IMG/VR virus record: IMGVR_UViG_3300034168_000130
Span: 1 to 60,949 of that record
DNA from: a virus
Lineage: Duplodnaviria; Caudoviricetes
Length of the DNA: 60,949 nucleotides
Direction: 5' to 3' (one strand)
The notes under the pieces were generated by a model. It did not search any database and was not told where the DNA came from. It saw only the letters and a program-made list of their open reading frames with translations. Shown here in pieces: positions 1 to 60,949 of the stretch; the stretch's first letter is position 1; every line of letters starts with the position of its first letter. The translations under genes were made by a program, and so were the position numbers.

Positions 1-226
1 TCAAAGATTTACGAGGGGGTACTCCCAACAGTCCGAAGAGCCCGACCCCCGTCGCCCCTGCGAGGCGTTGCCCTGCGCCGAGAACCAAAGGGCAACCGAG
101 GGGGGGGGGGGGGAGGGCAACCCTTGAAAAATCTTCGCATCTTCTCCACTTTATTTGATCTCGTCAGTATTACTTTGTCAGTTCGACTGACGGCTACTAG
201 CCTACCCTACGGGGTGGAGGACATAG
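1..226. repeat. Left direct terminal repeat
   Basis: Matches 60723-60949 except the G run (G14 here, G15 in the right copy); size typical of T7-like DTRs. Confidence 0.85.
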
Positions 227-273
227 CCCCTCTTTGACAACCCAACTCTATCGCTCTCACCTCGAGGGCTATG

Positions 274-336
274 GTAGCCAACTGGTCTACCCCGCAAGGG
301 GGAGTAATGAACTAGCGTGTGCCATAGTACTCGGGA
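274..336 (+). other. Long imperfect hairpin capped by CCC-GCAA-GGG (possible RNase III site or 5' leader)
   Basis: ctcgag/ctcggg, gctatggt/gccatagt, ctggt/actag pair with G-U wobbles; GNRA tetraloop. Confidence 0.5.
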
Positions 337-556
337 CTTTGAAGGCTATAAGGATCACGCCTCTATCGGAACTAGTGTCATTAGTTCCACTAACGATCAA
401 ATTAATCCCTCCCCTATTGCTTGCTTTTTTCGGTGAATTTTCCATTAAAGCACTCATTAGGGATAGGGAAGATATGCCCCTAACAAGGACATATCTTCCC
501 GTACCCTTCGGATGTTCCGTAGGGTATCGGGGCAACATATTCTTAAGGAGAATACT

Positions 557-883
557 ATGTCTAAGTTTTATAACGGTAATTTGATCAATCGGGCATTCAT
601 TGAATCTCAACTCTTACTTGCCACTGGCACTAAGGATGCTAATGGTAAGTTGTTGATTGAGGGTACTGGAGATATCACTATCCCCTTCATTGCCTACCAT
701 ATTCTCGTGGATTGTGACAAAGTGAAAACGCATAAGATGTATTGTGCAATGATCAAGGCTACTGGACGATCACTTTGCACAAAGACATTACGAGACGGTA
801 TGAATGCTATGCTTGCGGAAAACGGATATGCGTTCGCACCAAAGACCGATAAGTTGGATGCACTACTTGCCGAGATTGACTAA
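557..883 (+). CDS. Hypothetical early protein (first gene)
   Basis: ORF 512..883; start moved to ATG 557 after RBS TAAGGAG, whose context (ttcttaaggagaatac) recurs before 2964. Confidence 0.75.
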   Translation: MSKFYNGNLINRAFIESQLLLATGTKDANGKLLIEGTGDITIPFIAYHILVDCDKVKTHKMYCAMIKATGRSLCTKTLRDGMNAMLAENGYAFAPKTDKLDALLAEID

Positions 884-898
884 GTATCAATGGCAGTT

Positions 899-974
899 GG
901 GGATACCGTAGCACTCCTACGGTATCCCCTAGGGTTCACCCTAATAAGTGAGCCCTAGGGGATATCAATGTCCC
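899..974 (+). promoter_or_regulatory. Triple overlapping hairpin leader, copy A
   Basis: ggggataccgtag/ctacggtatcccc; cccctagggttcac-CCTAATAA-gtgagccctagggg; gggatat-caa-tgtccc; same architecture at 2855-2928. Confidence 0.6.
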
Positions 975-1020
975 AATGGTAATGTGAGTAATGTCCCTAT
1001 ACGGGCAGAAAGGTATCATT

Positions 1021-1281
1021 ATGGTTAAGTTCACTATGAAACAGATATTTGGTGATTGTCGTAGTCCAAAGGATTACGCTAGTCGAGTAGCCAAGTTTGC
1101 CAAGGATCGTAGTATCCCTACTGAAACAGTAATCGAGGCTATACGCCAAGGGTACGGGGTAACAGTCGATAGGGAGATGTGTGCGAAGTATGCCCACGTC
1201 AATGCTATTGAATCGTGGCAGACCGATTCACGTACTCATAGTACCGTCCTAGTCTTTGAGACTCTTATGGAGAATCTATGA
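1021..1281 (+). CDS. Hypothetical early protein
   Basis: ORF 991..1281; start at ATG 1021 after AAAGG; ATGA overlap with next gene. Confidence 0.7.
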   Translation: MVKFTMKQIFGDCRSPKDYASRVAKFAKDRSIPTETVIEAIRQGYGVTVDREMCAKYAHVNAIESWQTDSRTHSTVLVFETLMENL

Positions 1282-1568
1282 AACATCCTATGCCACCATT
1301 TGCCGATATGTACACTCCCCAATTGAAAAGGGCAGTAAGGAACTATGCCGATGGTAATACTACGGTAGACGAATTCATTGATGCGGTATTTGAGGCAGCC
1401 ACGAAAGGCGAAGTACACGAACTATTCTACGGTCTAATCAATCGTAGGCACGATTATCGTACTGAATGTGAGATGGCTATGAAGACATCTTGCACTAAGA
1501 AGATGACCAAAGCGTATGCCAATATGATGGTATATGTTCGAGTCCTTACTACTGAGGATACACTATGA
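1278..1568 (+). CDS. Hypothetical early protein
   Basis: GGAG RBS; ATGA overlaps at both ends. Confidence 0.7.
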   Translation: MKHPMPPFADMYTPQLKRAVRNYADGNTTVDEFIDAVFEAATKGEVHELFYGLINRRHDYRTECEMAMKTSCTKKMTKAYANMMVYVRVLTTEDTL

Positions 1569-1840
1569 GTCCCGAACTACTACGACTACATCAATCCTAT
1601 GAGAATGGTATCATTCACTGCGATGAGTTCGCAGAGGGTATCAAGAGTATCAAGGGATTGCATCCGCAGTATGAACCTATCGTCCTAGTACTTGAGTGGT
1701 ATCGTGAAGAATGCCGTAGTGTGGTATTCAACTTCGATAAGTTCGAGTGGGATGTTCGACAACTGAACACTATGGCAGGGTACTATGCACGGCTCAAGGA
1801 TGCCGTGGATAGTGTGGTCTACCCCAATGTAGTCCACTAG
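1565..1840 (+). CDS. Hypothetical early protein, possibly a distant paralog of 1278..1568
   Basis: GAGG RBS, ATGA overlap; both carry Y-x-x-G-x-x-x-x-DEF (YADGNTTVDEF / YENGIIHCDEF). Confidence 0.7.
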   Translation: MSPELLRLHQSYENGIIHCDEFAEGIKSIKGLHPQYEPIVLVLEWYREECRSVVFNFDKFEWDVRQLNTMAGYYARLKDAVDSVVYPNVVH

Positions 1841-1918
1841 TAATGAAACACACCTTCAGTATGAAGGTTCTTGGGATACCTTGCGTATCCCATAGGGATG
1901 CCCCTATCCTCACAATAG

Positions 1919-2278
1919 GGGTATCCCATAGGCTACACTGTAGAGGTGTACCCTATGGGATATATAGAGTGGGAGATATTACTAGATCAATGACGATTGA
2001 TCCCCTACTCTACAATATTCAATGGTGTATACCCTAGATGATTATGTTATAACTAATCTATAAACTAGGGTATCCCATAGGTTACACTGTAGAGGTGTAC
2101 CCTATGGGATATGTGGCACAGGGCAATAAATACCCTCCTACGATATCTCAATGTACTTATGTAGTGCTTACCTACACTAGTACCAGATAGAGATAAGCGT
2201 GGTATACCCTAGATGACATTAGTCTATAAAACTAGGGTATCCCATAGGCTACACTATAGTGGTGTACCCTATGGGATA
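1919..2278 (+). repeat. Array of three 44-nt palindromic repeats with unique structured spacers
   Basis: GGGTATCCCATAGGYTACACTRTAGWGGTGTACCCTATGGGATA at 1919-1962, 2068-2111, 2235-2278 (periods 149, 167); copies 2 and 3 also share the upstream GTATACCCTAGATGA...CTATAAA(A)CTAGGG hairpin. Confidence 0.9.
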
Positions 2279-2310
2279 ATGGTATCCACGATACACTTCT
2301 CCTAAAGAGT

Positions 2311-2836
2311 CTAGGTAATAGGTAACCTAGTAAAACACCTATACTGTAATTCCCTTCGGGGTATATACCTTCGGGTCTATATGTCAGTACACTACCATAT
2401 CCCTTGACTGGGGTATGGTGGCTTCTCTACTACATTAGGTAGTGGTAGTGCACTAGCACTGCCTATTCCCTAGTAGACGGTTATTTCCTATACCTTCTCC
2501 GTAAAAGTAAGGTTCATTAGTCACGGGAGTTTCATACTATCATCCTAACATAGGTGTGATGAAAGTATGTATGAGTGAGTTGGTACTATGCCCACCTATA
2601 GCAGGGTAAGTACTAGGGTTGAACACTGCCCTTAATCAGTGGATGGTATGCTGATGCCATATAAAGGTGTAGTAATACACCCCGCATAAAGAGATCGGTG
2701 CAGTTGCCTATCGCTGTATAAGTATAGGTATGTATCTCTACTACAGTACGCTCCGTTAGGATGGGCTGTAGCATATACGTTGGTAGGTTACACTACTTGT
2801 CGTCCACCTACGCAATACCCTAACGGGGGTATTGTG
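2311..2836 (+). ncRNA. Candidate large structured ncRNA, family unknown
   Basis: No ORF of 60 aa or more; two cUUCGg loops, GUAA and UAAC tetraloop hairpins, two H-type pseudoknots, G-U-containing stems, long-range cctatac/gtatagg pairing. Confidence 0.55.
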
Positions 2837-2854
2837 GGCTTGGATATGTAGCAC

Positions 2855-2928
2855 GGATACCCTCGGTGTACACTGAGGGTATTCCCTTCTGCTCTCCTAA
2901 TAGAGGGCGCAAGGGGATAACAATATCC
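2855..2928 (+). promoter_or_regulatory. Triple overlapping hairpin leader, copy B
   Basis: ggataccctcggtg/cactgagggtattcc; tcccttctgctctc-CTAATA-gagggcgcaagggg; ggata-acaa-tatcc; stems differ from copy A, loop conserved. Confidence 0.6.
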
Positions 2929-2963
2929 TATGTACGGTAGAAAAAATTCTTAAGGAGAATACA

Positions 2964-3194
2964 ATGGACTATCCAAACTATGGCGGGTACGAGGCTGAGT
3001 ACGGTATGAATCTGAAGGACACACTGATTGAGAATCAGGATGCAATCATCAAGGTACAAACGAGTACTATTGAAGTGCAGGATAAGCAGATACGATTATA
3101 CAAGGCACTCGAGGAAAGTAATATGACTATCATTGCATCCCTGAGGATTCAGATCCTTGCACTCACTACGGCAGTAGGGGAGTCACGACGATGA
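2964..3194 (+). CDS. Hypothetical coiled-coil protein
   Basis: Strong RBS TAAGGAG; heptad-like I/Q pattern. Confidence 0.75.
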   Translation: MDYPNYGGYEAEYGMNLKDTLIENQDAIIKVQTSTIEVQDKQIRLYKALEESNMTIIASLRIQILALTTAVGESRR

Positions 3195-3457
3195 ATATCA
3201 ACTTTAGTATCTATGATGCCCTAGAGGACATCACAAAGCAGTACACTGGAGTATTGACTACCCTTAGTGCGGAGACATACCGTGCAGATACCGCTGAAGG
3301 TGAAGCCTTCGCTACTAACCTGCGCCTAGTCGAAGTCCTCGCTGAACTCGAGTCTATCAAGGCATTATACCGTGGCTCACCATCCGATCTATCGGACTAT
3401 AAGAAGATGACCAATGAAGAATGCAGTAACATAGTTAAGGAGATAAGTAACCTATGA
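3191..3457 (+). CDS. Hypothetical protein
   Basis: GGGGAG RBS; ATGA overlaps. Confidence 0.7.
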   Translation: MNINFSIYDALEDITKQYTGVLTTLSAETYRADTAEGEAFATNLRLVEVLAELESIKALYRGSPSDLSDYKKMTNEECSNIVKEISNL

Positions 3458-4176
3458 ATAAACTAAAAACATCTAACGATAGGAAGGTAACTAATATGCC
3501 CACTGCTAATGGTAAGCAGTCCGCTATAAAGAATACCTTTGGTCTACCTAGTGGTATAGCATACTCTTGTAGGGGTGAGACTCCTACTTGTAAGAGAGTG
3601 TGTTATGCTGGTAGACTAGAGAAGGTATACCCTAGTGTAAGGGCATTGCTGTTACATAACTGGCTGTTACTAAAGGATGCCGACTATAATACTATGGTCT
3701 CATTGTTAGATGATATGATACAGTCATTCAATAAGGACTGTGCCAAGTACCCTAGTGTAGATAAGATATTCCGTATACACTGGGATGGTGACTTCTTTAG
3801 TGACGAGTATACTACAGCGTGGGCTACAGTAATACAGCGTCATCCTAGTATACAGTTCTGGGTATATACTAGAGTAGAATCTAGTGCCAGAATATTGCAA
3901 GGTATTGATAACCTATCCTTGTACTACTCTACTGATAGAGATAATGAATCTATTGGTATCAGTCTACGAGCAATAGGTATTAAACTTGCATACCTAGAGG
4001 ATACCTTTGAGACTGGTGGTATCCGACTAAAGGTTATCACTGGTAAGGTAGGTGCTAAATGTCCAGAGAATATGGGTGTTATACCCTTAATCTCTACCAT
4101 AGGCAGTGCCTGTGGGGTATGTAGATTGTGTGTTGATAACAAGACAGACATAAGATTCTCTATATCGAAAGGATAA
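3454..4176 (+). CDS. GP88-like (radical-SAM-related Fe-S) phage protein
   Basis: FGLPSG..SC-x6-C-x3-CYA, FRIHWDGDF, WVYTR, C-terminal C..CGVCRLC. Confidence 0.75.
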   Translation: MNKLKTSNDRKVTNMPTANGKQSAIKNTFGLPSGIAYSCRGETPTCKRVCYAGRLEKVYPSVRALLLHNWLLLKDADYNTMVSLLDDMIQSFNKDCAKYPSVDKIFRIHWDGDFFSDEYTTAWATVIQRHPSIQFWVYTRVESSARILQGIDNLSLYYSTDRDNESIGISLRAIGIKLAYLEDTFETGGIRLKVITGKVGAKCPENMGVIPLISTIGSACGVCRLCVDNKTDIRFSISKG

Positions 4177-4230
4177 TGTGTATACATTTGTACACATTTC
4201 TATACATATCCATACTGATATGTATATTAA

Positions 4231-4304
4231 ATCCCTATAGCGCAACAGGATAGCGCAACAGATTTCTAATCTGTAGGTTGTAGGTTCAAGTCCTACTAGG
4301 GATG
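4231..4304 (+). tRNA. tRNA-Arg(TCT)
   Basis: atcccta/tagggat acceptor, gcgc D stem, acaga-TTTCTAA-tctgt anticodon arm, gtagg-TTCAAGT-cctac T arm; CCA not encoded. Confidence 0.9.
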
Positions 4305-4307
4305 TTT

Positions 4308-4382
4308 GGGGTAGTGCCTGATGTTGGTAAAAGGTGTCGGCATATAACCGACCTCACGTGGGTTCGATTCCTACCTACCCTA
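4308..4382 (+). tRNA. tRNA-Ile(TAT), atypical (A33)
   Basis: ggggtag/ctaccct acceptor, gtcgg-CATATAA-ccgac anticodon arm, gtggg-TTCGATT-cctac T arm. Confidence 0.75.
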
Positions 4383-4424
4383 CTATTGTGTATCGTTGTT
4401 CGGTAACTTTTATAGGAGAATCAA

Positions 4425-4649
4425 ATGTATCTAGTACACGACAAGCATAATGTAATAGCATCAGGCTTCCCTGATAAACACCTAGCAGAGGTGTATGCAC
4501 ACTTGTATATCAATCTCTTCAGTGATGAGGGTGTATCTGTTAGCAGAGATGTTAATCAATTGAATCGTAATGGTAGCCTACAGTATGTAGGTCAACAGAT
4601 ATGTCCATTCACTGGAGAGTCAACAAGTAAACTAAAGGAGACAGTATGA
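4425..4649 (+). CDS. Hypothetical protein
   Basis: AGGAG RBS; overlaps next gene. Confidence 0.7.
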   Translation: MYLVHDKHNVIASGFPDKHLAEVYAHLYINLFSDEGVSVSRDVNQLNRNGSLQYVGQQICPFTGESTSKLKETV

Positions 4650-4852
4650 ATACATTCAAAGATGATCAGTTTGTAAGTGATATTGTGCGTCAAACAAGAC
4701 AGTCCACGGTACTGTCCCAGTTGTTACACAACAGGATACCTATGATAGATGCAGTAAAGACTGCATATGAAACAGAACAAGACATCAATAAAAGAGTTGC
4801 ATATGGTAACCTATTGGTGTGGCTACGCTTACTGAAAGAGGAGACCAAGTAA
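4646..4852 (+). CDS. Hypothetical protein
   Basis: AAGGAG RBS; TAATG coupling to next gene. Confidence 0.7.
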   Translation: MNTFKDDQFVSDIVRQTRQSTVLSQLLHNRIPMIDAVKTAYETEQDINKRVAYGNLLVWLRLLKEETK

Positions 4853-5214
4853 TGGGATTAGATCAATATATAAATGTAAACGGGTCTAACATTGCATCTC
4901 GTCCTGCTACTGGTGATGATGCTATTACTAATAACCCCATAGAGATATGGTATGGTCGTAAAGAATACGACATCCATAACTGGATGCATAAAAACTTTAT
5001 CTATAAGGGTGGTGATGTTAGTGCACAGTTTAACTGTGAGTCTTATGTACTGTTAGATGAAAAAGATATGGATGATCTAATAGAAGATATAAAAACATCA
5101 GATGGGTTTGAAGATACAGATAAAGACTTACTATCTGAGTACTTGGATATGTGTTATAAGGTAAAGAGGTTGGTTGAGCGTGGTAACATAGTATACTACA
5201 CCTCGTGGTGGTAG
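4852..5214 (+). CDS. Conserved phage hypothetical protein (MGLDQY...YYTSWW type)
   Basis: Start moved to ATG 4852; MGLD-x-Y, Y-x-RK..IHNW, FNCE and terminal SWW pattern recurrent in phages. Confidence 0.75.
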   Translation: MGLDQYINVNGSNIASRPATGDDAITNNPIEIWYGRKEYDIHNWMHKNFIYKGGDVSAQFNCESYVLLDEKDMDDLIEDIKTSDGFEDTDKDLLSEYLDMCYKVKRLVERGNIVYYTSWW

Positions 5215-5259
5215 TAGTGTTTTAATTCAGTACTAAAGTTCATATATAAAAGGAATATA

Positions 5260-5847
5260 ATGACACAAATAAACATTGATCTCCCTTATGCACGGTATGC
5301 TGGGGACTTTAGAACCAAGCATCTATTAGACCTAGTGCTAGAGGCTCATAGGCTATTGGGTATGAATAATAACTGTCTCAGTACAGGTGCATTCATCAAC
5401 TGCTACAAGGCAACAGGCAGTATGCCTAGTGCTATAGCCTCTGCTGTGCTAACTCTTAATGGGTTACACGCCCCTATACAACAGGCTAGAGATGTATATG
5501 AGTACTATGATCAGGAGATGATTAACAGGGATATACTGGAAGGTCGAAAGATAGCAGGGTTTGGTAATGCTTTCCATAAGGACGGCATTGATCCAGTATG
5601 GTTATCAGTACAACAGTATATGATCAGTGAATTCTTTGATGAGTATCGTAGACTGATGGACTTACAGGATTGGGTAAACTATACTCGTAAACGATATAAA
5701 CCTGATGCTAAAGATATCTTTATTAACCCTGCTATGTGGACGGCAGTGGTATGTGGTATGTATAACTTCGACAGAGGTAGCGAACTATCCCTGTTTATAA
5801 TGGCAAGACTGCCCACTTGGATACAGAAAGGATTATGTAATGATTGA
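5260..5847 (+). CDS. Citrate synthase / citryl-CoA lyase-fold protein with degenerate active site
   Basis: AIASAVLTLNGLHAP (cf. GPLHGGA), GRKIAGFGNAFHKDGIDP (cf. IPGFGHRVYK..DPR), LFIMARLPTW (cf. LFAIARxxGW). Confidence 0.7.
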   Translation: MTQINIDLPYARYAGDFRTKHLLDLVLEAHRLLGMNNNCLSTGAFINCYKATGSMPSAIASAVLTLNGLHAPIQQARDVYEYYDQEMINRDILEGRKIAGFGNAFHKDGIDPVWLSVQQYMISEFFDEYRRLMDLQDWVNYTRKRYKPDAKDIFINPAMWTAVVCGMYNFDRGSELSLFIMARLPTWIQKGLCND

Positions 5848-6049
5848 AAGCGATGAGAGAATAGATAAGATTGTAGCACAGATGCTGTGCTTTATTGAGA
5901 GTCAAGGCTATGCCTTGGTAGCCATACACCCTATTAACTTGAGAAATGTAGATGTTGATCAAGTTAACGAGGCTATGGAGAATGCTGGTACATATGACAT
6001 AGTTCTACAAGAACAAGAAAGGATTAAGAATGGTACTAAAGAATCTTAA
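5840..6049 (+). CDS. Hypothetical protein
   Basis: AAAGGA RBS; overlaps neighbours. Confidence 0.65.
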   Translation: MIESDERIDKIVAQMLCFIESQGYALVAIHPINLRNVDVDQVNEAMENAGTYDIVLQEQERIKNGTKES

Positions 6050-6977: not shown

Positions 6978-7050
6978 GGACTAGTAGACCAATGGCAGAG
7001 TCAATAGATTTAAAATCTATACAGTGTGGGTTCGAGTCCCACCTAGTCTA
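6978..7050 (+). tRNA. tRNA-Leu(TAA), short variable loop
   Basis: ggactag/ctagtct acceptor, D loop aatggcaga, ataga-TTTAAAA-tctat anticodon arm, gtggg-TTCGAGT-cccac T arm. Confidence 0.85.
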
Positions 7051-8127: not shown

Positions 8128-8154
8128 TAGTGCGGTAATTAATGCGTCGAATAC

Positions 8155-8184
8155 GGGGCATCCATAGTATACTATGGATGCCCC
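8155..8184. promoter_or_regulatory. Perfect 30-bp palindrome upstream of the RNAP gene
   Basis: GGGGCATCCATAGTA|TACTATGGATGCCCC. Confidence 0.6.
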
Positions 8185-8213
8185 TTAGCATCCATAATAT
8201 ACGGAGTTACACT

Positions 8214-10682
8214 ATGAGTAAATGGAATCAATTATCTATTGAAGAAAAAGATAAGCGTACTACATTACAAGTACTTGCTGAGGAAGAGATGCTTGCCATC
8301 TCTGACCGTAAGTATTGGCAGGAGTATGATGTAGCCCCTGATGAGGGGTATCCTGAACAATCTCTGTTAGATACCTGTGTTATTAATCTTACTCCATTGT
8401 TTCAAGAGTGGATAGATTACTCTGCTAAGAACACTAAGACTCCTGCTTGGGCACTACCCTTGTTTGGTGTGGGTGCAGGTAAGATGGCTGACATCACGGT
8501 ACGATGTCTTATATTGGAATGGTTTAATTCTAGTATGTGGGATAAGAAGACAGAGTTTGAAACTGTTGCACTGCCTACGGCACAGCACATAGCACACGCT
8601 ATTGCTGATATGGTCATCAACATTGTATCCTATCAACAGACTAAACAATTCTTTAGAGAAGACTGGCTAAAGCAGTCACACTATCAGAAGAACTGGTCAC
8701 CCAAAAGGTGTAAAGCATTTGTAGAAAAGATGGGTGGTCTTAACAAGACATCCTTTACTCGTAAGAATAGAGAAGACTTTGGTCATCATATGCTCAGGAT
8801 TGTAGAGAAGTCTAATGTTATTGTATTGTCTAACAATCGTAGGCATACAGGTAAACGTTGGTGTGACCGTGTTGTTGTGTCCTTTACTGATGTAGTATTA
8901 CAAGAGTTAAACAAGCGACATACTGATATGATTGCTATGGCTGCACTGTTGTATAGACCTATGCTAGTGCCACCTGTACCACATACCACTACATCATCTG
9001 GTGGTAATCTATTGGCGTATGTTCGTAAGCCTGTGGTTCAAAGGTTTAAAGATATTATGTGGGATGAGAAGGTAATCCAAAAGGGATCTACTCCATCTGA
9101 TATGGTCATTGATGGGTTGAATGCAATGATGCATACTGAGTGGACTGTTAATGGACGGGTGTATGAGGTTATGAATACACTGTTTAGAAACAATACTAGA
9201 GCATGTAACTTACCCGCCTATGAGTTCGCTGCCTTTGATTACTCTATGCCTTACCCTAAAGATGGGACTAAAGAAGAGAAAGCAATGTGGTGTGGTCACA
9301 AACAAGACTCGTACTCGTCTTGGTATAAAGAAGAGAGAGCACGTGGACGTATGCTAGTACGGCTCAAGTTGGCTAAAGATATGATGAGACATGGGTTCTT
9401 CTATCAACTGTATACCTGTGACTTTAGAGGTAGAGCAAATGCATCGTGTGATTTACTATCACCACAATCATCTGACTTTGATAGAGGATTAGTATGCTTT
9501 GCCAATGATGCTAAGCAAACTAACAGTGGTATATACTGGCTTAAGGTACACTTAGCAAACTTATTTGATCACGATAAGGATACATTCACCAATAGAATTA
9601 AATGGGTAGATGATAACATTGAGATGTTTAAACGTATCAATGAAGATCCTTATGCTAACCTAAGTTTATGGATGTCTGATAAGAAGAAGAAGAACCCATC
9701 CTTCCAACGGTTGGCTGCTATCTTTGACTTACTCAGGACAGATGGTCTTACTTCAGTACCTGTACAGATGGATGGTAGTTGTAATGGTGTTCAACATTGG
9801 GCTGCCCTTATGAAGGCAGATGAGTTGGCTGATATGGTTAACTTAACTACGACACCAGTACCACAAGACCTATATCAGTATGTTGCAGACTTAGTAACTG
9901 AACTGATGATAGAAGATCAAGAGAATGATACTAAGTCTGGGCTATGGGCAAAACAATTCTTAATACAATGGAATAATTATATCCATCGTAATGTTGTTAA
10001 GAGGGCTGTAATGACAGACCCATATGGTGTCACTCTATTTGGTATTCGACGGTACTGTAAGAGTGAAGGTCATCTTGATTGGGTTACTAAAGATAAGATT
10101 GCTGGAGCTGTAATGGAACTAGCATCCTTCATTGACAAAGCCCTTAAGGGAACTTTAGTAGAACCCAACAAGGGTAAGGTATGGCTTAAGGTTGTATCGG
10201 ATATGTCTTCTGAGTTATCTAAGAACATGGAATGGACTACGCCGTGTGGTTTCCATGTAGTACATCAATACTATGAGATCATATCAAGACGATCTGTTAC
10301 TAAGTTATTTAACATGAAAGAGTTATACTTTGGGTATCCCGACAGGGATTCTATTGATCCAAGACAAGTAAACCTAGCAATCAGTCCTAATTATATACAC
10401 TCATTAGATGCAAGTCATATGTGGTGTACGATGAGAAGGATGACGTTAGTTGGTATCTCCTCATTCAGTATGGTGCATGACAGTTATGGATGTCATGCCC
10501 CCTATGTATCTCTTATGAGAGAGTTTACTAAAGAAGAGTTCCATACTATGCATAAACTACCTTTATTAGAGATGCTTAGGAAAGAATTAGAATCTATTCT
10601 CAAGGTTCCGTTACCTGAGATACCACAACAAGGTGAGTTTAACATTAACAAAGTGTTAGAAGCGGAGTACTTATTCCAATGA
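8214..10682 (+). CDS. T7-like single-subunit DNA-directed RNA polymerase
   Basis: DFRGR, DGSCNGVQH (motif A), R-x3-K-x7-YG (RNVVKRAVMTDPYG, motif B), PNYIHSLDA, HDSY (motif C); start moved to ATG 8214 after GGAG. Confidence 0.97.
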   Translation: MSKWNQLSIEEKDKRTTLQVLAEEEMLAISDRKYWQEYDVAPDEGYPEQSLLDTCVINLTPLFQEWIDYSAKNTKTPAWALPLFGVGAGKMADITVRCLILEWFNSSMWDKKTEFETVALPTAQHIAHAIADMVINIVSYQQTKQFFREDWLKQSHYQKNWSPKRCKAFVEKMGGLNKTSFTRKNREDFGHHMLRIVEKSNVIVLSNNRRHTGKRWCDRVVVSFTDVVLQELNKRHTDMIAMAALLYRPMLVPPVPHTTTSSGGNLLAYVRKPVVQRFKDIMWDEKVIQKGSTPSDMVIDGLNAMMHTEWTVNGRVYEVMNTLFRNNTRACNLPAYEFAAFDYSMPYPKDGTKEEKAMWCGHKQDSYSSWYKEERARGRMLVRLKLAKDMMRHGFFYQLYTCDFRGRANASCDLLSPQSSDFDRGLVCFANDAKQTNSGIYWLKVHLANLFDHDKDTFTNRIKWVDDNIEMFKRINEDPYANLSLWMSDKKKKNPSFQRLAAIFDLLRTDGLTSVPVQMDGSCNGVQHWAALMKADELADMVNLTTTPVPQDLYQYVADLVTELMIEDQENDTKSGLWAKQFLIQWNNYIHRNVVKRAVMTDPYGVTLFGIRRYCKSEGHLDWVTKDKIAGAVMELASFIDKALKGTLVEPNKGKVWLKVVSDMSSELSKNMEWTTPCGFHVVHQYYEIISRRSVTKLFNMKELYFGYPDRDSIDPRQVNLAISPNYIHSLDASHMWCTMRRMTLVGISSFSMVHDSYGCHAPYVSLMREFTKEEFHTMHKLPLLEMLRKELESILKVPLPEIPQQGEFNINKVLEAEYLFQ

Positions 10683-36974: not shown

Positions 36975-38387
36975 ATGACATATACAAACACACCTATAGT
37001 AGTCAGTCAACAAACCACTGGTTATACTTCTGGAAACATTCCATACTCCAGTATTGTTTTAATTCCAAGTATTCCACACGCAGCTCAACTAGAGGTTGAA
37101 AGAATTTTTACACAAGATAGAGATGGAAGTACAGCAACTCTATTGGCTTTCTTAGCAGACCCAGCTGTTACTACTGCTCAAAAGAAAGCTGTGTTTCTTA
37201 TCCCCATCAGTCGTTGTACCTTGGATTCTATTACAAGTAACATCACAGCAATCGACTTACCTGCTTCAGGAGCTACTATTTATAATTATGTAGTAATAAC
37301 CCCAACCCCTACTACTTATACTATAAAGGTACCAGCTTTAAGCAGCTCTACAGTTACAGTACGTCGTAAAACCGTATCAAATGAACCATTTGTAAACTGG
37401 CAAGCAGGAAGTCGTCTTACCAGTAAACAGTTAAACTTAGCAACAACACAATCTTTATATCTTATACAAGAAGCTTTAGAAAAGATTGGTACATCTGTAA
37501 CAATTGAAACAACACAGATTACAGCTGCCAGTCTATCAGATAATTCTGTAACCAATTCTGCTATTGCAAGCAATGCTGTGACAACTGCTAAGATTGCAGA
37601 CAATGCTGTTACTACAGCTAAGATTGCAGACAATGCTATTACAACAGCTAAAATTATTGATGTAAATGTTACGACAGCTAAGCTTGCAGATAATTCTGTA
37701 ACCTCAGCAAAGATTGCCGATGCTAATGTTACAACTGCTAAGATTGCCGATGCTAATGTTACAACTGTTAAGATTGCAGATAGTAGTGTTACAACTGCTA
37801 AGATTGCCGACAGTGCTGTTACATCTGCTAAAATTTTAGATGGTACTATTGTAAATGCAGCTATAAGTGCAACTGCTGGCATTGTTGATACAAAGCTATC
37901 TACTATTTCTACTGCTGGTAAAGTAGCTAATAGTGCAACTACAGCTGTGACTGCAGCTACTGCTGATACTATTGTGTTGCGAGGAACTAGTGGAGCTGTT
38001 ACAACAGGTCTTTTAACCGCATCATCAATTTCAACTTCAGGAAATCTTTTATTTAACAGTGGGTTTGGGTCTGCTGCGGTTGGTTATGGATGTCGTGCGT
38101 GGGTAAATTTTAATGGTACAGGAACGATTGCTATAAAAGCAAGTGGTAATGTAAGTTCAATTGGTGATAATGGTGCGGGTGATTACACAGTAAATTTTAC
38201 CACATCTATGTCCGATGCTAATTATTGTATAGCAACTTCTGGTGCTCGCACTGCTGCCGAAATTCAAGTAATTGGTGTTGATTACACAAACTCTACAAAA
38301 ACGGCATCGGCTGTTCGGCTAGGCGCAAAGTTAATAGGACTTGCTAGATCAGATTCTGCCGAATGTAATGTAGCTATCTTCCGTTAA
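36975..38387 (+). CDS. Tail fibre with T7 gp17-like anchoring segment
   Basis: VRRKT..FVNWQAGSRLTSKQLN..QSLYLIQE; VTTAKIAD repeats; C-terminal CRAWVNFNG..NVSSI.D.G.GDY.VNF. Confidence 0.85.
   Translation: MTYTNTPIVVSQQTTGYTSGNIPYSSIVLIPSIPHAAQLEVERIFTQDRDGSTATLLAFLADPAVTTAQKKAVFLIPISRCTLDSITSNITAIDLPASGATIYNYVVITPTPTTYTIKVPALSSSTVTVRRKTVSNEPFVNWQAGSRLTSKQLNLATTQSLYLIQEALEKIGTSVTIETTQITAASLSDNSVTNSAIASNAVTTAKIADNAVTTAKIADNAITTAKIIDVNVTTAKLADNSVTSAKIADANVTTAKIADANVTTVKIADSSVTTAKIADSAVTSAKILDGTIVNAAISATAGIVDTKLSTISTAGKVANSATTAVTAATADTIVLRGTSGAVTTGLLTASSISTSGNLLFNSGFGSAAVGYGCRAWVNFNGTGTIAIKASGNVSSIGDNGAGDYTVNFTTSMSDANYCIATSGARTAAEIQVIGVDYTNSTKTASAVRLGAKLIGLARSDSAECNVAIFR
37531..37845 (+). repeat. 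About ten 30-nt coding repeats (VTTAKIADNA)
   Basis: Repeated gttac(a/t)actgctaagattgc(a/c)ga units. Confidence 0.85.
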
Positions 38388-42978: not shown

Positions 42979-44040
42979 ATGTCACAACTAAACAATAACT
43001 TTTACAATGAACTGCAGAATATTGCTTCTGCATCTATGCCAGTTACAACTACAAACACAAACCCAACAAACATTGAAGAAGGTTTATCAAAACAAGCTAC
43101 AGCTAGACTAAAAGAATCAACTGATCTTGCAATGCAAATGTATCCATCAGAAGCAGGAGAAAGATTTGATTTCTGGAAGAAACAAAACAACCCAGAAAGT
43201 ATGGATACAGATACAAAGAATGTTTATTGGAAGACATATGAACAGATGCATCCTGAAGGTATTGTTGGGGCTAAAAGAGATTTCGTAGATGTTACTAAGA
43301 GAGAGTTAGATGTTATTGGTAGTAATGTTGGTAAGGAGTATTTCCTAAGGGATAGGTTGGTGAATACACCAGCATGGGCACGTAAAGAATTAGATCCTAT
43401 TTTAGGTGAACTTAGTGCAAACGTTGCTAACTCAAACTACTCTAAATCACAACAAGTCTATATGAAAGATTTAGATCTCAGGGCTTCTCACTTTGCTGCT
43501 AAGGCTCAGTTAGATCCTGATGTGTCTATAGATACCCATACAGAAGATGCTGTTAAATTGGAACAACTAAATCTTTTAGAATTGGGTACAGTTGTTCAAG
43601 GTCGTATAGGTGTTTATAATGAAGATGGTCAATTCTACCCAGCCTTTGGTATTAAAGATAGAACTGAGATTTTTAAAAAAGATATTGACGCATCTCCTTC
43701 TTTGGAAGAACAAAGTGTTGTTCGTGGTATTGCTCCTAACATTATCCGAAGAGCTGTTGAAGGAAATCTTGCGTTAAACCGAAACAAGATTCAAGCACAA
43801 GAACGCACAGGAGAAGCAGTCGCTACTGAGTATTTAACAACTGGTGCTTTTGGTATTGATAAATGGAATACAGCTTTTGCTATGTTACCTAACGTTACTA
43901 ATTATGATAAACTAAAACAAGGTATTCAAGGAGAGATTTCTTCTGGCAGAATAACCTCTGAGAAAGATTTAATAAGAACAATCTATCAATCTATGGTCAC
44001 TTATGGTCATCTATTTGAAAAAAATAAGGAACAGAAATAA
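42979..44040 (+). CDS. Putative internal virion protein
   Basis: 353-aa helical ORF within the ejection block; TAATG-coupled. Confidence 0.6.
   Translation: MSQLNNNFYNELQNIASASMPVTTTNTNPTNIEEGLSKQATARLKESTDLAMQMYPSEAGERFDFWKKQNNPESMDTDTKNVYWKTYEQMHPEGIVGAKRDFVDVTKRELDVIGSNVGKEYFLRDRLVNTPAWARKELDPILGELSANVANSNYSKSQQVYMKDLDLRASHFAAKAQLDPDVSIDTHTEDAVKLEQLNLLELGTVVQGRIGVYNEDGQFYPAFGIKDRTEIFKKDIDASPSLEEQSVVRGIAPNIIRRAVEGNLALNRNKIQAQERTGEAVATEYLTTGAFGIDKWNTAFAMLPNVTNYDKLKQGIQGEISSGRITSEKDLIRTIYQSMVTYGHLFEKNKEQK
43259..43276 (+). promoter_or_regulatory. Possible phage promoter variant upstream of the giant virion genes
   Basis: GTATTGTTGGGGCTAAAA; exact core. Confidence 0.35.
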
Positions 44041-47000
44041 TGCCTCCACTTCAGCCTCTTCAACAAACAATCTTTGAACAAGGTCCACAATCATCTGTCG
44101 GTATGGGAGCATCTCCTATTGTAGACTATAGGGAAGATCCAACCGTAATAGTAAACCCTATTAACCCAGCTCTTGCTTTAGATAATGGAGTTGCGTGGTA
44201 TGCCTTAGGTGCTGAAGCTTTTAATGTTGCAGGTAAGTTGTATACGGAAACCTTGGATAATGTTATTGAAGGTAAAGATGCATCTATCCAAGCTATTGGT
44301 TATGATCTACAGGACGAGACTGATGATTTGTATCAGAACTTTCAAATAAGACTCCAGCAAGCAGAGATTGCAGGTACTGACTTGACCCAAGAGGATCAAG
44401 TGATACTGAATAAGGGATATGAAGATCTCAAGGTAAAGTATGACGAACAGGCTAGAGGTGTTCTTGGTGATGAAGATTATGCTCGGTTCACTCAGGGCAA
44501 TCCTGACCTCAGTGATATTGGCAGCAAGTATCGTCGCCTAGCCCTACAGACCCGTAAAAGTTACTATGATATTGAGAACAATATCACAAAGATCATGTAT
44601 AATATGGCAGAAGCTCAACAAAATTTAATTGAGAAGAACGAAAACAGGGCTAGGTTTGCTGCTGGCAACGGACCAACGGGCAGCAGACAACCTTCCCTGA
44701 CAAGGGAAGAGATGGCAAATATTCCCTATAACCCAATGATCAATGGTATGTACCCTATCACAACAAACGGTGGCAAGTCTATACTGCCTATGGGTAAGGA
44801 TGGTACTGCGTTTGGTCGAGATGCTGCAGGGCAGATCTTAAAGGATGAATTTGGAAAGCCTGTGTTAGTTGAAGGTAAAGATAAAGAATTATACATCAAC
44901 AAAGAAGCAGACCTAGCAGTCTTAGGCGAAGACCATTTACGCACTATTTCCCGAGTAGAAGCTGAGGGTGGTAACCAGACCAGTGCTACAGGTAAGAACA
45001 TCCTTCCTGCAGCCCAGAGGGCATACAAAGATCTTATCACAGATAGACTCTCTGATAGTGATGCATTGATAGCAATGAACCAATTGCGCTATGTTGATGT
45101 TCGGGCAATTGCTGCATTACAAAATGCTGATGGCAGTCCAGCTTTCTCAGCAGACCAAGTTATGCGCCTCAGTGTAATGAGCAGCATGTCTCGTAGTTCT
45201 GCTACGTTAGAGATGCTAAAAAAGTTTCAAGTTAATGACTTTAACAATCCTAAGGCATTAGAGATTGCCTATAAGTATCTAAACAGTGTAAAACGTGGTG
45301 CTAAGGGGTTGGTAATGGAAGGTCGTAATGATTTCTTAGGTAATGAAGAAACCATCTTCGGTACAGGTCAAGACCAAACAGCTTTGGCAACCATCACTAA
45401 TGCAGTTGTTCGCTTTGCAGCTCAATATTCTGGGGTAAACCTTGATACTTACACTACGGATGAAAACAATAAGGATGTCAGAGTAGCTGGCGAAGGAACT
45501 AGTAATGAATCTATTGTTGATTTCTTGTACAGGAATCCTCAGATGAAGATTATGATTGTTCGTGCTTACCTTGCTGTCATGTCGAACCCAACTATTACCC
45601 GAGGTGGTACAGAAGCTACAGACAAACTACGCAGTGAAGAGATCAATGAGTTTATGAAAACTTCTTTTGTTCCTGCTGAGTTTGAAGCAGCTGACCTGAG
45701 TGTTATTGATGGTGTGGTCATTAGCTCTAAGTCTTTGAAGTCAGTTGATAGATCAGTTGAAGGCTTGAATAGCATCATTAATTCTGCTAAGCTTACTGAT
45801 CTCCAGAAAAAAGAATACATGGATCTTAATAAGGGAGAGAAGAGTAAAATTATAGCTCAGGCTGAACTACGTGGAACCAACGGCTGCAAAGTTCTTCATA
45901 CAGATACAGAAGAACAGGTTATTGCTAAACAAATTACTTACATAGGACTGTGGAATCCTTCCGCTGACAAGCAAGTCATTCGTGCTGTGCTTGGCGGTGT
46001 TGGTCAAACCAGCGTAACCCGCAGAGGAACTACTATAGCTAAGAACGGTCTCAGTGATGGTGAGTTAGCTCGTGCTGCGTTCGCAGCTAATCCAGAATTC
46101 TACGGACCTATGGGTCTTGTACCTAACACTAAAGACGCAGCTGCCTTGGTTCGTGCTATGCCTATAGAGGATCAAGTAAAACTTGCTGGTGAGGCTTGGC
46201 AGATGATCCCTCCAGCTGAGTACTGGGAGATGGAACTAGATATCTCAGACATATCTCAACTAGAAGGAGACAATTCAGGCATCCCTGTGTCTTTTAAAGC
46301 AATTTCTGCTCAGACTGTTGATGGAACTAACGTGAACCTTGTTGATTATGTGACCTCTAGGGATAACCTAGATTCAAAAGGTGGCTGGATGCCCCGTCAA
46401 CGTGACAACAATAACACCCCTATAGTTCGCATTGGTCAACGTATCCTGAATGATAAGAATCAACTTGTTGAAAACACAGAACGAAACCTAAACTTAAACA
46501 TACAAGACATAATTGAAGCACGGGCTGAAGGTTCCTTTAGTAACCGTGAGACTGTGCTTAGGGGAGCGGGATTTCCTAGTCGAACAGACACAGGAGCTAC
46601 TGATGATGTTCGGGCTATTGAGGCAATCAAGATTAGTAAGATCCAGCAGGATAGAATTAACTTTGCAAAGTTATTTGAAACCAGTGGGATTGATAATCCA
46701 GAAGTTACTTCAGTTGTTGATTTTATGAACCAACTAGATCTTCCAAAAACCAGAGCAGGTCTAGCAGCCATACGAAAACTTGATCCTACGTTCAAAGATG
46801 ATGCTGCAGGTACCAGTATCCTTGATACCATTACTACAGATTACCGACGAGCAACCCAGCCTAACACAGGTGAGTTACGTACTGGTGCGGGTGATCCTGA
46901 TGGTAAGGGTAACTATGCTGATGCTTTATTTACCCCAGCCATGATGGATGCAGTTATGGTAAAGGCACAGAAGCTTGGTCTTAAAACCGTCAGTGATCAT

Positions 47001-60722: not shown

Positions 60723-60949
60723 TCAAAGATTTACGAGGGGGTACTCCCAACAGTCCGAAGAGCCCGACCCCCGTCGCCCCTGCGAGGCGTTGCCCTGCGC
60801 CGAGAACCAAAGGGCAACCGAGGGGGGGGGGGGGGGAGGGCAACCCTTGAAAAATCTTCGCATCTTCTCCACTTTATTTGATCTCGTCAGTATTACTTTG
60901 TCAGTTCGACTGACGGCTACTAGCCTACCCTACGGGGTGGAGGACATAG
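60723..60949. repeat. Right direct terminal repeat
   Basis: Copy of 1-226 with one extra G. Confidence 0.85.

What the first reader, a model, noticed from the sequence alone, without database searches (positions are those of the whole stretch)
2311..2836. Candidate ~500-nt multi-domain ncRNA directly after the third repeat
Seen: three-way junction tactg/cagta with two cUUCGg loops (2342-2389); 12-bp stem 2392-2421 whose TTGACT loop is complementary to AGTCA at 2519; nested hairpins 2426-2477; long-range cctatac(2487)/gtatagg(2722) enclosing about six hairpins including ggtgta-GTAA-tacacc (2666-2681); ctacagt/gctgtag; UAAC-capped hairpin 2811-2836. Known: large ornate ncRNAs (GOLLD, ROOL) occur in phages, often near tRNAs; T7-like phages are normally gene-dense. 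Inference: a new large ncRNA or a cluster of small ones.
Basis: partly seen in the sequence, partly recalled or inferred. Interest (0 to 1): 0.78.

Follow-up and report, generated by a model that had tools for sequence, protein, structure and literature searches.

The report
Conserved structured RNA in lake phage
A gene-free stretch near the left end of an uncultured lake-water T7-like phage encodes a folded RNA of about 350-440 bases that matches no catalogued RNA family, keeps its shape in related phages and turns up in lake RNA libraries, though its job is still unknown.

Summary
The window is a complete 60.9-kb T7-like podovirus with 227-bp terminal repeats.

Two or three related contigs keep eight of the helices through compensatory changes. 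One search found 94 consensus pairs: 21 changed on both sides and 3 broken. One search found 98% of cells paired, against 30-41% when the partners are slid.

The helices fold much better on the + strand, through G-U pairs and UUCG loops. No Rfam family matches, even at E<=5. No + strand ORF of 10 aa or more has a Shine-Dalgarno motif.

Contigs of four lake metatranscriptomes cover about 2291-2732. Word depth is 11-134 there, against 0-13 for most flanking bins and 25 at most.

The conserved core is 2297-2649. The stretch 2650-2810 varies among relatives. The long-range 2487/2722 helix and the TTGACT/AGTCA pseudoknot are not conserved.

Two invariant loops, 2550-2556 and 2593-2599, are complementary over 7 nt.

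Verdict: a real, new, narrowly distributed structured phage RNA. Whether it is a free ncRNA or a cis-acting part of the early transcript is open, and so is its function.

The parts
1913..1962 (+). Hairpin repeat 1 (arms 1922-1938 and 1946-1962, 17 bp with one conserved Y-C mismatch, 7-nt loop). A flanking element, not part of the RNA core.
   Evidence: there are only 3 copies in the 60.9-kb genome, and 0 are expected by chance.
2062..2111 (+). Hairpin repeat 2.
   Evidence: Window 1919-2111 is 99.5% identical to L002 4338-4530, while the neighbouring genes are 86.5% identical.
2229..2278 (+). Hairpin repeat 3, directly upstream of the RNA core.
   Evidence: -25.4 kcal/mol.
2297..2312 (+). Invariant 5' linker TTCTCCTAAAGAGTCT, the left edge of the conserved core. 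TTCTCCT (2297-2303) is complementary to the AGGAGAA Shine-Dalgarno region at 2953-2959.
   Evidence: an exact 16-nt block shared with L002; an RNA contig of a relative starts to match at 2298.
2311..2330 (+). Helix H1 (CTAGGT/ACCTAG).
   Evidence: 6 pairs, 2 changed on both sides against L002. 0 of 200 column shuffles reach the observed energy.
2342..2389 (+). Three-way junction with two UUCG-capped hairpins.
   Evidence: In the L002 homologue the junction is the MFE fold; its second hairpin is capped UUUG, not UUCG. A third variant in RNA run X21 keeps both UUCG loops on different stems (loose end at 2349).
2392..2421 (+). Helix H3, 12 bp.
   Evidence: 12 pairs, 3 changed on both sides, 0 broken. 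Consensus energy is -17.8 on + against -4.9 on -. 0 of 200 shuffles reach it.
2426..2477 (+). Helix H4, a long nested hairpin with a conserved YUCCC bulge on its 3' side.
   Evidence: 16 pairs, 6 changed on both sides. -15.0 on + against -6.6 on -. 0 of 200 shuffles reach it.
2492..2513 (+). Helix H5 (ACCUU/AAGGU). Support is weak.
   Evidence: each sequence folds a hairpin here. MAFFT did not put the two in register, so one search found no consensus.
2533..2569 (+). Helix H6 with the invariant 13-nt loop CUAACAUAGGUGU.
   Evidence: 11 pairs, 2 changed on both sides, 1 broken. The module is duplicated in L002.
2581..2615 (+). Helix H7 with the invariant loop ACCUAUAGCA. The stretch 2593-2599 is complementary to the H6 loop at 2550-2556.
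   Evidence: 12 pairs, 4 changed on both sides, 0 broken; a 7-nt loop-loop complement is reached by 51 of 20000 shuffles.
2624..2641 (+). Helix H8 (CACUG/CAGUG) with the conserved loop CCCUUAAU. The right edge of the core shared with L002 is about 2649.
   Evidence: 5 pairs; the closing pair is C-G in the window and U-G in L002; the X21 replacement sequence reads as U-A on my by-eye alignment.
2642..2810 (+). Variable extension. It holds hairpins 2639-2685 (including the GUAA-capped 2666-2681), 2690-2739 and 2741-2771.
   Evidence: It is absent from L002. One X21 variant replaces 2613-2697 by 27 nt. Relatives diverge after 2698 or 2731.
2811..2836 (+). Helix H12.
   Evidence: an 11-bp hairpin in the window and a 13-bp hairpin with a different stem sequence at the homologous place in L172. 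The same 3' flank, TGGGCTTGG, follows both.
2855..2884 (+). Helix H13, a 13-bp palindromic hairpin. In relatives it abuts a hairpin repeat.
   Evidence: 13 pairs in 3 sequences, 1 changed on both sides, 2 on one side. The two strands fold equally well (-22.9 against -22.2).
2884..2915 (+). A different hairpin at the place where L002 and L172 carry a hairpin repeat. About 45 nt upstream of the next start codon.
2952..2966 (+). Shine-Dalgarno sequence and ATG of the next early gene (2964-3194).

Best explanation
The stretch encodes a genuine structured RNA read from the + strand. Its conserved core of about 350 nt (2297-2649) holds eight helices: H1, a three-way junction with UUCG loops, and H3-H8. 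A variable tail follows, to about 2730-2810.

Shown:
- The helices are kept by compensatory substitution in related phages.
- They are much better on the + strand.
- The region is not coding.
- It matches no Rfam family.
- Sequence from it is present in lake RNA libraries.

Inferred:
- It is transcribed with the early left-end genes, by the host polymerase or from a promoter in or near the hairpin repeats.
- It survives as a stable RNA between long flanking hairpins (repeat 3 and H13).
- It acts as an autonomous module, not as the leader of one particular gene. The reason is that its position relative to the repeats differs between relatives, and the gene downstream differs between the window and L002/L172.
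- Its invariant single-stranded loops (H6, H7, H8 and the 5' linker) are the likely working surfaces. They would either bind a host or phage partner early in infection, or contact each other: the H6 and H7 loops are complementary over 7 nt, within one molecule or between molecules.
For: Structure.
- (MAFFT plus RNAalifold per helix; window against L002 and/or L172): 94 consensus pairs. Of these, 57 are invariant, 13 changed on one side, 21 changed on both sides and 3 broken.
- In one search, 0 of 200 column shuffles reach the observed energy for H1, the junction, H3, H4, H7 and H13.
- (gapless 89-column alignment): 98.3% of 58 cells paired, against 30-41% with slid partners. 6 pairs changed on both sides, against 0 in every slid control.
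- (larger blocks): z = -6.0, -11.1 and -7.9 for three of seven blocks.

Strand.
- Consensus energies on + against -: H3 -17.8/-4.9, H4 -15.0/-6.6, H7 -14.3/-6.6, junction -10.8/-7.2.
- There are 29 G-U cells in the consensus helices.
- UUCG loops recur in three lineages: both loops in the window and in an X21 variant, the first only in L002.

Not coding.

Not a known family.

Homology: window 2298-2649 matches L002 3710-4240 at E = 2.9e-14.

RNA.
- 6 of the 24 listed runs are metatranscriptomes, each holding 10-14% of the words of the 1121-nt query.
- In all 4 runs laid (4 studies), the deepest contigs lie on 2380-2732, at word depth 11-134.
- Inside the same query, nothing lies on 1843-2085 or 2733-2963. 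Most flanking bins have depth 0-13; the highest are 17.7 (bin 1-200, X21) and 24.8 (bin 5001-5200, X22, from a 36-nt piece with loose ends on both sides).

Modularity: there are three different gene and repeat arrangements around the same core.

Loop-loop complement.
Against: - Only two DNA relatives carry parts of it: the L002/L125 contig and L172. Some RNA-contig variants add to this, but they are known only through listed differences. Covariation therefore rests on very few lineages.
- I chose the helix segments by eye after a fold, which can flatter the counts.
- Two of seven larger blocks show no or marginal signal under automatic alignment (block D z = +0.05; block E z = -1.9). H5, H8 and H12 are weak (200, 12 and 38 of 200 shuffles reach them).
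- The single-sequence z-score is the same on both strands.
- The runs were found with this very stretch, and they are contigs. They show neither strand, ends nor true level, and DNA carry-over cannot be excluded.
- Several RNA contigs run on into other sequence for 136-611 nt. The RNA may therefore be only part of a longer transcript.
- No promoter and no terminator was identified.
- Relatives with 49-79% identical polymerase show no homologue and no ORF-free gap, where their contigs reach that far.
- The loop-loop pairing is invariant, so it has no covariation support.
- The function is wholly inferred.
Confidence: 0.45

Rival explanations
1. The same structured RNA works only in cis. It is an intergenic or leader segment of the early polycistronic transcript. 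In this reading it sets processing, stability or translation of the early mRNAs.

The long flanking hairpins (the repeats, H13, the hairpin at 2884-2915) would be cut or protected ends, like the RNase III sites between T7 early genes. The TTCTCCT at 2297-2303 could mask the AGGAGAA ribosome-binding site at 2953-2959.
For: - Long hairpins of 17-21 bp punctuate the early region just before genes: 459-507 before the ATG at 557, 923-964 before 1021, and 2855-2915 before 2964.
- In L002 and L172 a hairpin repeat sits 41-45 nt before a start codon.
- There is no terminator between the core and the next gene.
- RNA contigs continue beyond the core on both sides.
- The 7-nt anti-SD/SD complement is read.
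- The T7 layout of three tandem early promoters and then RNase III sites is recalled knowledge, not a call.
Against: - The downstream gene differs between the window and L002/L172. In L002 and L172 the hairpin repeats lie between the core and that gene.
- Eight helices with invariant loops are far more than a processing site or a ribosome-binding-site mask needs.
- AGGAGA-type sites precede many genes here, so the complement is not specific.
- Within the query, RNA contig depth peaks on the core and not on the leader next to the gene (with the caveats given there).
Confidence: 0.33
2. The region works as DNA, not RNA. It could be an origin of replication, an array of protein-binding palindromes, or a recombination cassette region like the promoter-terminator PeSL elements of T4-like phages. 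The hairpins would then be incidental or cruciform-forming.
For: - The three repeats and H13 are near-perfect palindromes that fold equally on both strands (H13 -22.9 against -22.2).
- The repeats are 94-100% alike across copies and 99.5% alike between phages whose genes are 86.5% alike. The order of core and repeats is rearranged between relatives.
- This fits exchange points as described for PeSLs (PMC4122927, abstract read).
Against: - For the core itself, the helices are strongly asymmetric between strands and depend on G-U pairs.
- The stems vary while pairing is kept and the loops are invariant.
- UUCG caps recur.
- Core sequence is found in RNA libraries.
- G+C is 0.42-0.45, not AT-rich.

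This rival may still hold for the flanking repeats.
Confidence: 0.08
3. It is a decayed remnant of early genes, or a set of unrelated chance hairpins, with no function of its own.
For: - Early regions of T7-like phages turn over quickly.
- The stretch 2650-2810 is variable and absent from L002.
- More distant relatives lack the element.
Against: - 21 pairs changed on both sides against 3 broken. The slid controls collapse.
- Loops are invariant amid diverged stems.
- In the RNA-run contigs the core carries fewer differences than two flanking genes. It shows 6 other letters in 258-319 nt, against 42 in 354 and 17 in 296. Those contigs may come from different strains.
Confidence: 0.04

Closest known systems
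GOLLD and ROOL large ornate RNAs
   Same: These are large multi-helix non-coding RNAs found in phages or prophages and in lake or rumen samples. They have kissing loops and no known function (PMC12286853, abstract read). Here too there is a multi-helix phage RNA from lake water with a conserved loop-loop complement. tRNA genes lie 1.3 kb downstream.
   Different: There is no match to any Rfam model even at E<=5. The core is about 350 nt, which is smaller by my recollection of their sizes. It sits in the early region of a T7-like podovirus. Oligomerisation was not tested.
T7 early region (three tandem host promoters followed by RNase III processing hairpins between early genes); recalled knowledge, not a call
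   Same: The position is similar: a left-end, gene-free stretch with three tandem repeated elements spaced 149 and 167 nt apart. Structured RNA follows before the early genes. Long hairpins sit ahead of the early genes.
   Different: The repeats are 41-nt palindromes with no recognisable sigma-70 hexamers. Four ORFs lie upstream of them. The structured stretch is hundreds of nt with eight conserved helices rather than one processing hairpin. RNase III cleavage was not tested.
PeSL promoter-terminator cassettes of T4-like phages (PMC4122927, abstract read; PMC2839356, search listing only)
   Same: PeSLs are small, conserved, stem-loop-containing sequences repeated in a plastic early region. They lie at the borders of rearrangements between close relatives. 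This fits the three hairpin repeats that flank the RNA.
   Different: This phage belongs to a different phage group. No promoter was identified in the repeats. The comparison concerns the flanks, not the RNA core.
phi29 pRNA; recalled knowledge, not a call
   Same: It is a structured phage RNA encoded at the left end and made early. It multimerises through two complementary loops.
   Different: There is no sequence or Rfam match. T7-like phages are not known to use a packaging RNA. The size and architecture differ.

Membership tests
Any Rfam 15 family (GOLLD, ROOL, ribozymes, riboswitches, 6S, tmRNA and the rest) | A covariance-model match at or near the family's gathering score. | tested here: not met
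   (gathering thresholds, whole window) returned only 3 tRNAs. One search (E<=5, window 1-4500, both strands) returned nothing inside 1843-2960.
Structured non-coding RNA (general kind) | Base pairs kept by compensatory substitutions in homologues. | tested here: met
   Searches found 21 of 94 pairs changed on both sides and 3 broken. Slid controls gave 0 compensatory pairs. Only 2-3 sequences are available per helix.
Structured non-coding RNA (general kind) | Absence of a conserved reading frame. | tested here: met
   The longest + strand ORF in 2279-2963 is 24 aa. 0 of the 9 ORFs of 10 aa or more have an SD-like motif.
Structured non-coding RNA (general kind) | Transcribed, with defined strand and ends. 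| tested here: inconclusive
   One search found contigs of 4 of 4 laid metatranscriptome runs on 2291-2732. Contigs show neither strand, ends nor level, and the runs were chosen with this stretch.
T7-type RNase III processing sites | An intercistronic double-stranded hairpin of about two helical turns in the early transcript. | tested here: met
   Searches show 17-bp repeats, the 13-bp H13, and hairpins at 459-507 and 923-964 ahead of genes. This applies to the flanks, not to the core.
T7-type RNase III processing sites | Cleavage by host RNase III. | not testable with these tools
   It needs an enzyme assay or end mapping.
PeSL-like cassettes | A stem-loop combined with an early promoter. | tested here: inconclusive
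   The stem-loop is present. The sigma-70 scan found no site in or beside the repeats. The host and its promoter type are unknown.
PeSL-like cassettes | Located at the borders of insertions, deletions or replacements between close relatives. | tested here: met
   The order of core and repeats differs between relatives. There is 99.5% identity across a repeat pair, against 86.5% in the genes.
Homo-oligomeric ornate RNAs (ROOL/GOLLD-like behaviour) | Conserved intermolecular contacts such as kissing loops. | tested here: inconclusive
   Searches show a 7-nt complement between two invariant loops. There is no covariation, and nothing tells within-molecule from between-molecule pairing.

The most novel reading that the evidence does not exclude
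The RNA is a new self-assembling or partner-trapping phage RNA. The invariant H6 and H7 loops would kiss between molecules to build a multimer, as ROOL, GOLLD and phi29 pRNA do. Alternatively, the invariant loops and the anti-SD-like 5' linker would capture a host factor or host defence component in the first minutes of infection. Either way it would be an RNA counterpart of the protein anti-defence genes that T7-like phages carry at this position.
Probability: 0.12. Interest if true: 0.85.

Novelty: new variant of a known kind. Interest (0 to 1): 0.62.

Why it matters
T7-like phages are the textbook case of gene-dense genomes whose early region is filled with small proteins that take over the host. 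I know of no conserved multi-helix RNA described in that position, though this rests on recollection plus a single search. One full-text search (T7-like, noncoding RNA, early region, metatranscriptom, freshwater) listed nothing of the kind among the 15 of 63 papers shown.

If it is a stable RNA with its own activity, it adds an RNA player to early phage-host conflict. It would also add a tractable, mid-sized family to the short list of large structured RNAs of unknown function.

It comes from a phage lineage with no cultured relative: the polymerase is about 26% identical to the nearest cultured phage. That lineage recurs in lake metagenomes. 18 DNA runs hold 97% or more of the words, but most may be the source samples or one campaign.

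Tried and rejected
- **Known families.** Rfam at gathering and at E<=5 found nothing in the gap. ARAGORN found only the three tRNAs outside it.
- **Cultured phages.** blastn of 1840-2965 against 50,697 phage records gave no match.
- **More homologues.**
  - The GP88 neighbour protein was used as an anchor in viral contigs and in metagenome contigs (80 loci kept each). Only L002, L171 (the same phage, 99.9%) and L172 share the non-coding DNA.
  - Exact or degenerate patterns in viral contigs found only the L002 contig again, or chance hits. The 15-mer was too unspecific: 88 stretches matched, and none of those BLASTed was homologous apart from the L002 contig (L125).
  - Two patterns in genome contigs gave 0 matches.
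  - nhmmer against 258 loci hit only L002/L125 and L172.
  - Polymerase relatives L251-L258 have no similarity and no ORF-free gap other than a tRNA region. Several of those contigs do not reach far enough left.
- **Repeats as phage-polymerase promoters.** I recalled a resemblance of the repeat loop to SP6-type promoter cores. I rejected it because there are only 3 copies, all upstream of the polymerase gene. A different + strand motif recurs through the genome and in relatives.
- **N4-like scheme (hairpin promoters read by an injected giant polymerase).** The 3631-aa protein shows only an ART-PolyVal domain and has no PDB relative. There is no support.
- **Sigma-70 promoters and intrinsic terminators.** None lies in 1843-2937. 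The one promoter-like site at 2938-2965 overlaps the ribosome-binding site.
- **Long-range 2487/2722 helix and TTGACT/AGTCA pseudoknot.** Neither is conserved.
- **Parts of 1-6000 without RNA contigs.** No conclusion is drawn from holes.
- **Tools and calls that gave nothing.** One paper search failed on a mistyped term and was not repeated. Supplementary files were not consulted.

Full report
**What the window is.** The 60,949-base window is a whole virus record.

- Bases 1-226 are repeated at 60723-60949, as expected for the direct terminal repeats of a T7-like phage.
- Apart from a few short reverse-strand frames that lie inside longer + strand ORFs, all long ORFs are on the + strand.
- Pfam finds a single-subunit RNA polymerase (8142-10682), a T7-type primase-helicase, a family A DNA polymerase, a portal and a T7-type capsid protein.
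- The polymerase is only about 26% identical to that of any cultured phage. The lineage is therefore uncultured.
- The DNA recurs in lake-water metagenomes.

**The gap.** Between the stop of an early ORF at 1840 and the start codon at 2964, the + strand has no ORF of 25 aa or more after 2305. None of the nine + strand ORFs of 10-24 aa in 2279-2963 has a Shine-Dalgarno-like motif. Real genes here carry AAGGAGA.

The gap begins with three 50-nt repeats, each a 17-bp hairpin with one conserved mismatch. These repeats occur nowhere else in the genome. The finding is the 650 nt that follow them.

- The 526 nt fold better than dinucleotide shuffles: z = -3.17, 0 of 100 as good.
- The reverse strand gives z = -3.20, so this test alone does not show an RNA.
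- Relative to 230 windows of the same genome, corrected for G+C, the region has the sixth most negative residual (5 of 230 are lower), z = -2.4.

**Relatives.** I used the neighbouring GP88-family protein as an anchor. Three contigs share the non-coding DNA:

- L002 (the same contig as L125), whose genes are 86.5% identical.
- L171, which is the same phage at 99.9%.
- L172, whose contig starts only 145 nt before its hairpin repeat.

nhmmer aligns window 2298-2649 to L002 3710-4240 (E = 2.9e-14) and window 2782-2962 to L172 38-232 (E = 6.6e-11). It aligns to nothing else among 258 loci. Pattern scans of viral and genome collections added no further homologue. More distant polymerase relatives have no counterpart where their contigs reach that far. 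The family is therefore narrow.

**Covariation.**

- In a gapless 89-column alignment of window 2529-2617 with L002 4088-4176, the two hairpins H6 and H7 keep 98.3% of 58 cells paired. Six pairs change on both sides. With partners slid by 1-3 columns, pairing falls to 30-41% and there are no compensatory pairs.
- The stems carry nearly all the differences, while the loops are invariant.
- Across ten helix segments there are 94 consensus pairs: 57 invariant, 13 changed on one side, 21 on both sides and 3 broken.
- No column shuffle out of 200 reaches the observed consensus energy for H1, the three-way junction, H3, H4, H7 or H13.
- H6 (4 of 200), H8 (12 of 200) and H12 (38 of 200) are weaker. 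H5 was not aligned in register.
- Larger blocks aligned automatically give z = -6.0, -11.1, -4.6, -7.9 and -7.6 for five blocks. The two blocks in which MAFFT misplaces diverged stems or an L002 insertion give +0.05 and -1.9.
- I chose the segment borders by eye after a fold, which may flatter the counts. Each helix rests on two or three sequences.

**Strand.** The consensus helices are far better on the + strand: H3 -17.8 against -4.9, H4 -15.0 against -6.6, H7 -14.3 against -6.6. This is because they use G-U pairs, 29 cells in all. UUCG caps recur. The window has both; L002 keeps the first, on a GC/GC stem, and has UUUG on the second. A third lineage seen in RNA run X21 has both, on still different stems (loose end at 2349). 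These features point to an RNA read in the same direction as the genes.

**RNA libraries.**

- Six of the 24 listed runs are lake metatranscriptomes. Each holds 10-14% of the words of the 1121-nt query.
- I laid four of the six, from four studies, on 1-6000.
- In all four, the deepest contigs (word depth 11, 48, 43 and 109) lie on 2380-2732. They show 6-10 other letters in 216-319 nt.
- Contigs on 2086-2279 have depth 5.6-7.5. Nothing lies on 1843-2085 or 2733-2963.
- Most flanking bins have depth 0-13. The two highest are 17.7 (bin 1-200, X21) and 24.8 (bin 5001-5200, X22, a 36-nt piece with loose ends on both sides).

There are caveats.

- The runs were found with this stretch.
- Contigs give no strand, ends or reliable level.
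- DNA carry-over is possible.
- Several contigs continue for 136-611 nt into sequence unlike the window.

I take this as a hint that the core is present in RNA and relatively abundant, not as proof of a discrete RNA.

**What the variants say.**

- The listed differences fall in loops or linkers (2483, 2551, 2622, 2635), or in places where the partner's state was not shown (2474, 2577). 61 differences were not listed.
- One X21 variant replaces 2613-2697 by 27 nt. It keeps H8, whose closing pair reads as U-A on my by-eye alignment, and drops the two hairpins of 2642-2685.
- One X19 variant lacks 2699-2731.
- L002 has a 60-nt insertion between the junction and H3, and a second copy of the H6 module.
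- The core 2297-2649 is therefore conserved, while peripheral hairpins come and go. This is typical of structured RNAs.
- The long-range 2487/2722 helix and the TTGACT/AGTCA loop pairing are not kept.

**A new detail.** Among the exact blocks shared by the window and L002, two are complementary to each other besides H6's own stem: AUAGGUG in the H6 loop (2550-2556) and CACCUAU in the H7 loop (2593-2599). A 7-nt complement is reached in 51 of 20000 shuffles of the two loops. It is invariant, so covariation can neither support nor refute it. The invariant 5' linker begins with TTCTCCT, which is complementary to the AGGAGAA ribosome-binding site 650 nt downstream. That motif precedes many genes here.

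**Context.** Three arrangements exist:

| Lineage | Order of elements |
|---|---|
| Window | repeat, repeat, repeat, core, variable part, H12, H13, another hairpin, gene A |
| L002 | repeat, a 58-aa ORF, 165 nt, core, variable part, H13, repeat, repeat, gene B |
| L172 and the RNA contigs | a gene's stop codon, core, variable part, H12, H13, repeat, gene B |

The core always points the same way as the genes, and H13 and a long hairpin always follow it. Its upstream neighbour differs in all three arrangements. The downstream gene differs between the window and the other two. That argues for a self-contained module rather than a leader tuned to one gene.

The repeats are 99.5% identical between the window and L002 over 193 nt, while the genes are 86.5% identical. 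They also sit at the rearrangement borders. This recalls the PeSL cassettes of T4-like phages (PMC4122927, abstract). Long hairpins also precede other early genes (459-507, 923-964), as RNase III sites do in T7 early RNA (recalled).

**Mechanism.** I commit to a + strand structured RNA that is made with the early genes and persists between the flanking hairpins. It would act through its invariant loops on a partner or on itself (0.45). The main rival is a purely cis-acting leader or processing region (0.33). A DNA-level role (0.08) may hold for the repeats but fits the core poorly. Chance or decay (0.04) is contradicted by the covariation.

**Known families.** No Rfam model matches, so it is not GOLLD, ROOL or any catalogued ribozyme or riboswitch. 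It resembles them in kind: a large multi-helix phage-borne RNA of unknown function from lake water (PMC12286853, abstract). One full-text search listed nothing similar among the 15 of 63 papers shown.

**Limits.** Supplements were not consulted.

Noticed in passing
window 6283, 11878, 17578, 19326, 26348, 43262, 60176 (+ strand): A motif GTTGGGGCTA(A/T)A, often followed by GA, recurs seven times, always on the + strand. It also occurs, + strand only, in relatives with 68-79% identical polymerase and in L002 after the giant gene. It is a candidate promoter of the phage's own RNA polymerase, or another strand-specific signal such as a nick site.
   Followed up: partly
window 1913-2278; L002 3281-3327, 4337-4530; L172 146-190: The three 50-nt hairpin repeats are 99.5% identical to L002 over a 193-nt unit, while the genes are 86.5% identical. 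They sit at rearrangement borders. In relatives they lie 41-45 nt before start codons. In the window the fourth such site (2884-2915) holds a different hairpin with the same 3' flank.
   Followed up: partly
window 1-226 and 60723-60949: A direct terminal repeat of about 227 bp, G+C-rich, with a long run of G near position 100. The two copies are in register only with a 1-base offset around that run, with start spacing 60722 against 60723.
   Followed up: no
window 49241-60136 and 44040-49241: A 3631-aa protein whose only Pfam match is an ART-PolyVal ADP-ribosyltransferase domain (residues 1363-1541). It has no PDB relative. A 1733-aa protein precedes it and ends in a phage lysozyme domain. They are probably ejected internal virion proteins, unusually large for a T7-like phage.
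   Followed up: partly
window 459-507 and 923-964: Two further long hairpins (21-nt arms 81% complementary; 17-nt arms 94% complementary) sit just upstream of early genes. They share GGTATCCC/GGGGATA-type arms with the repeats.
   Followed up: no
L002 3545-3708 and 3999-4040: The L002 non-coding region has an extra 165 nt that is self-complementary (3546-3712 against its own reverse strand, E = 8e-4). It also holds a second, more diverged copy of the H6 module.
   Followed up: no
window 37517-37872: Ten tandem copies of a 30-nt unit lie inside the ORF 36975-38387. This is probably a repeat-containing tail fibre or a similar structural protein.
   Followed up: no
window 4231-4383 and 6978-7050: There are three tRNA genes: Arg-TCT, Ile-TAT and Leu-TAA. 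All read A/U-ending codons. They lie in the early region, 1.3 kb and 4 kb downstream of the RNA.
   Followed up: no
window 5260-5847: A 195-aa early protein has a weak, sub-threshold match to the citrate synthase C-terminal domain (24.4 bits against a cut-off of 27).
   Followed up: no
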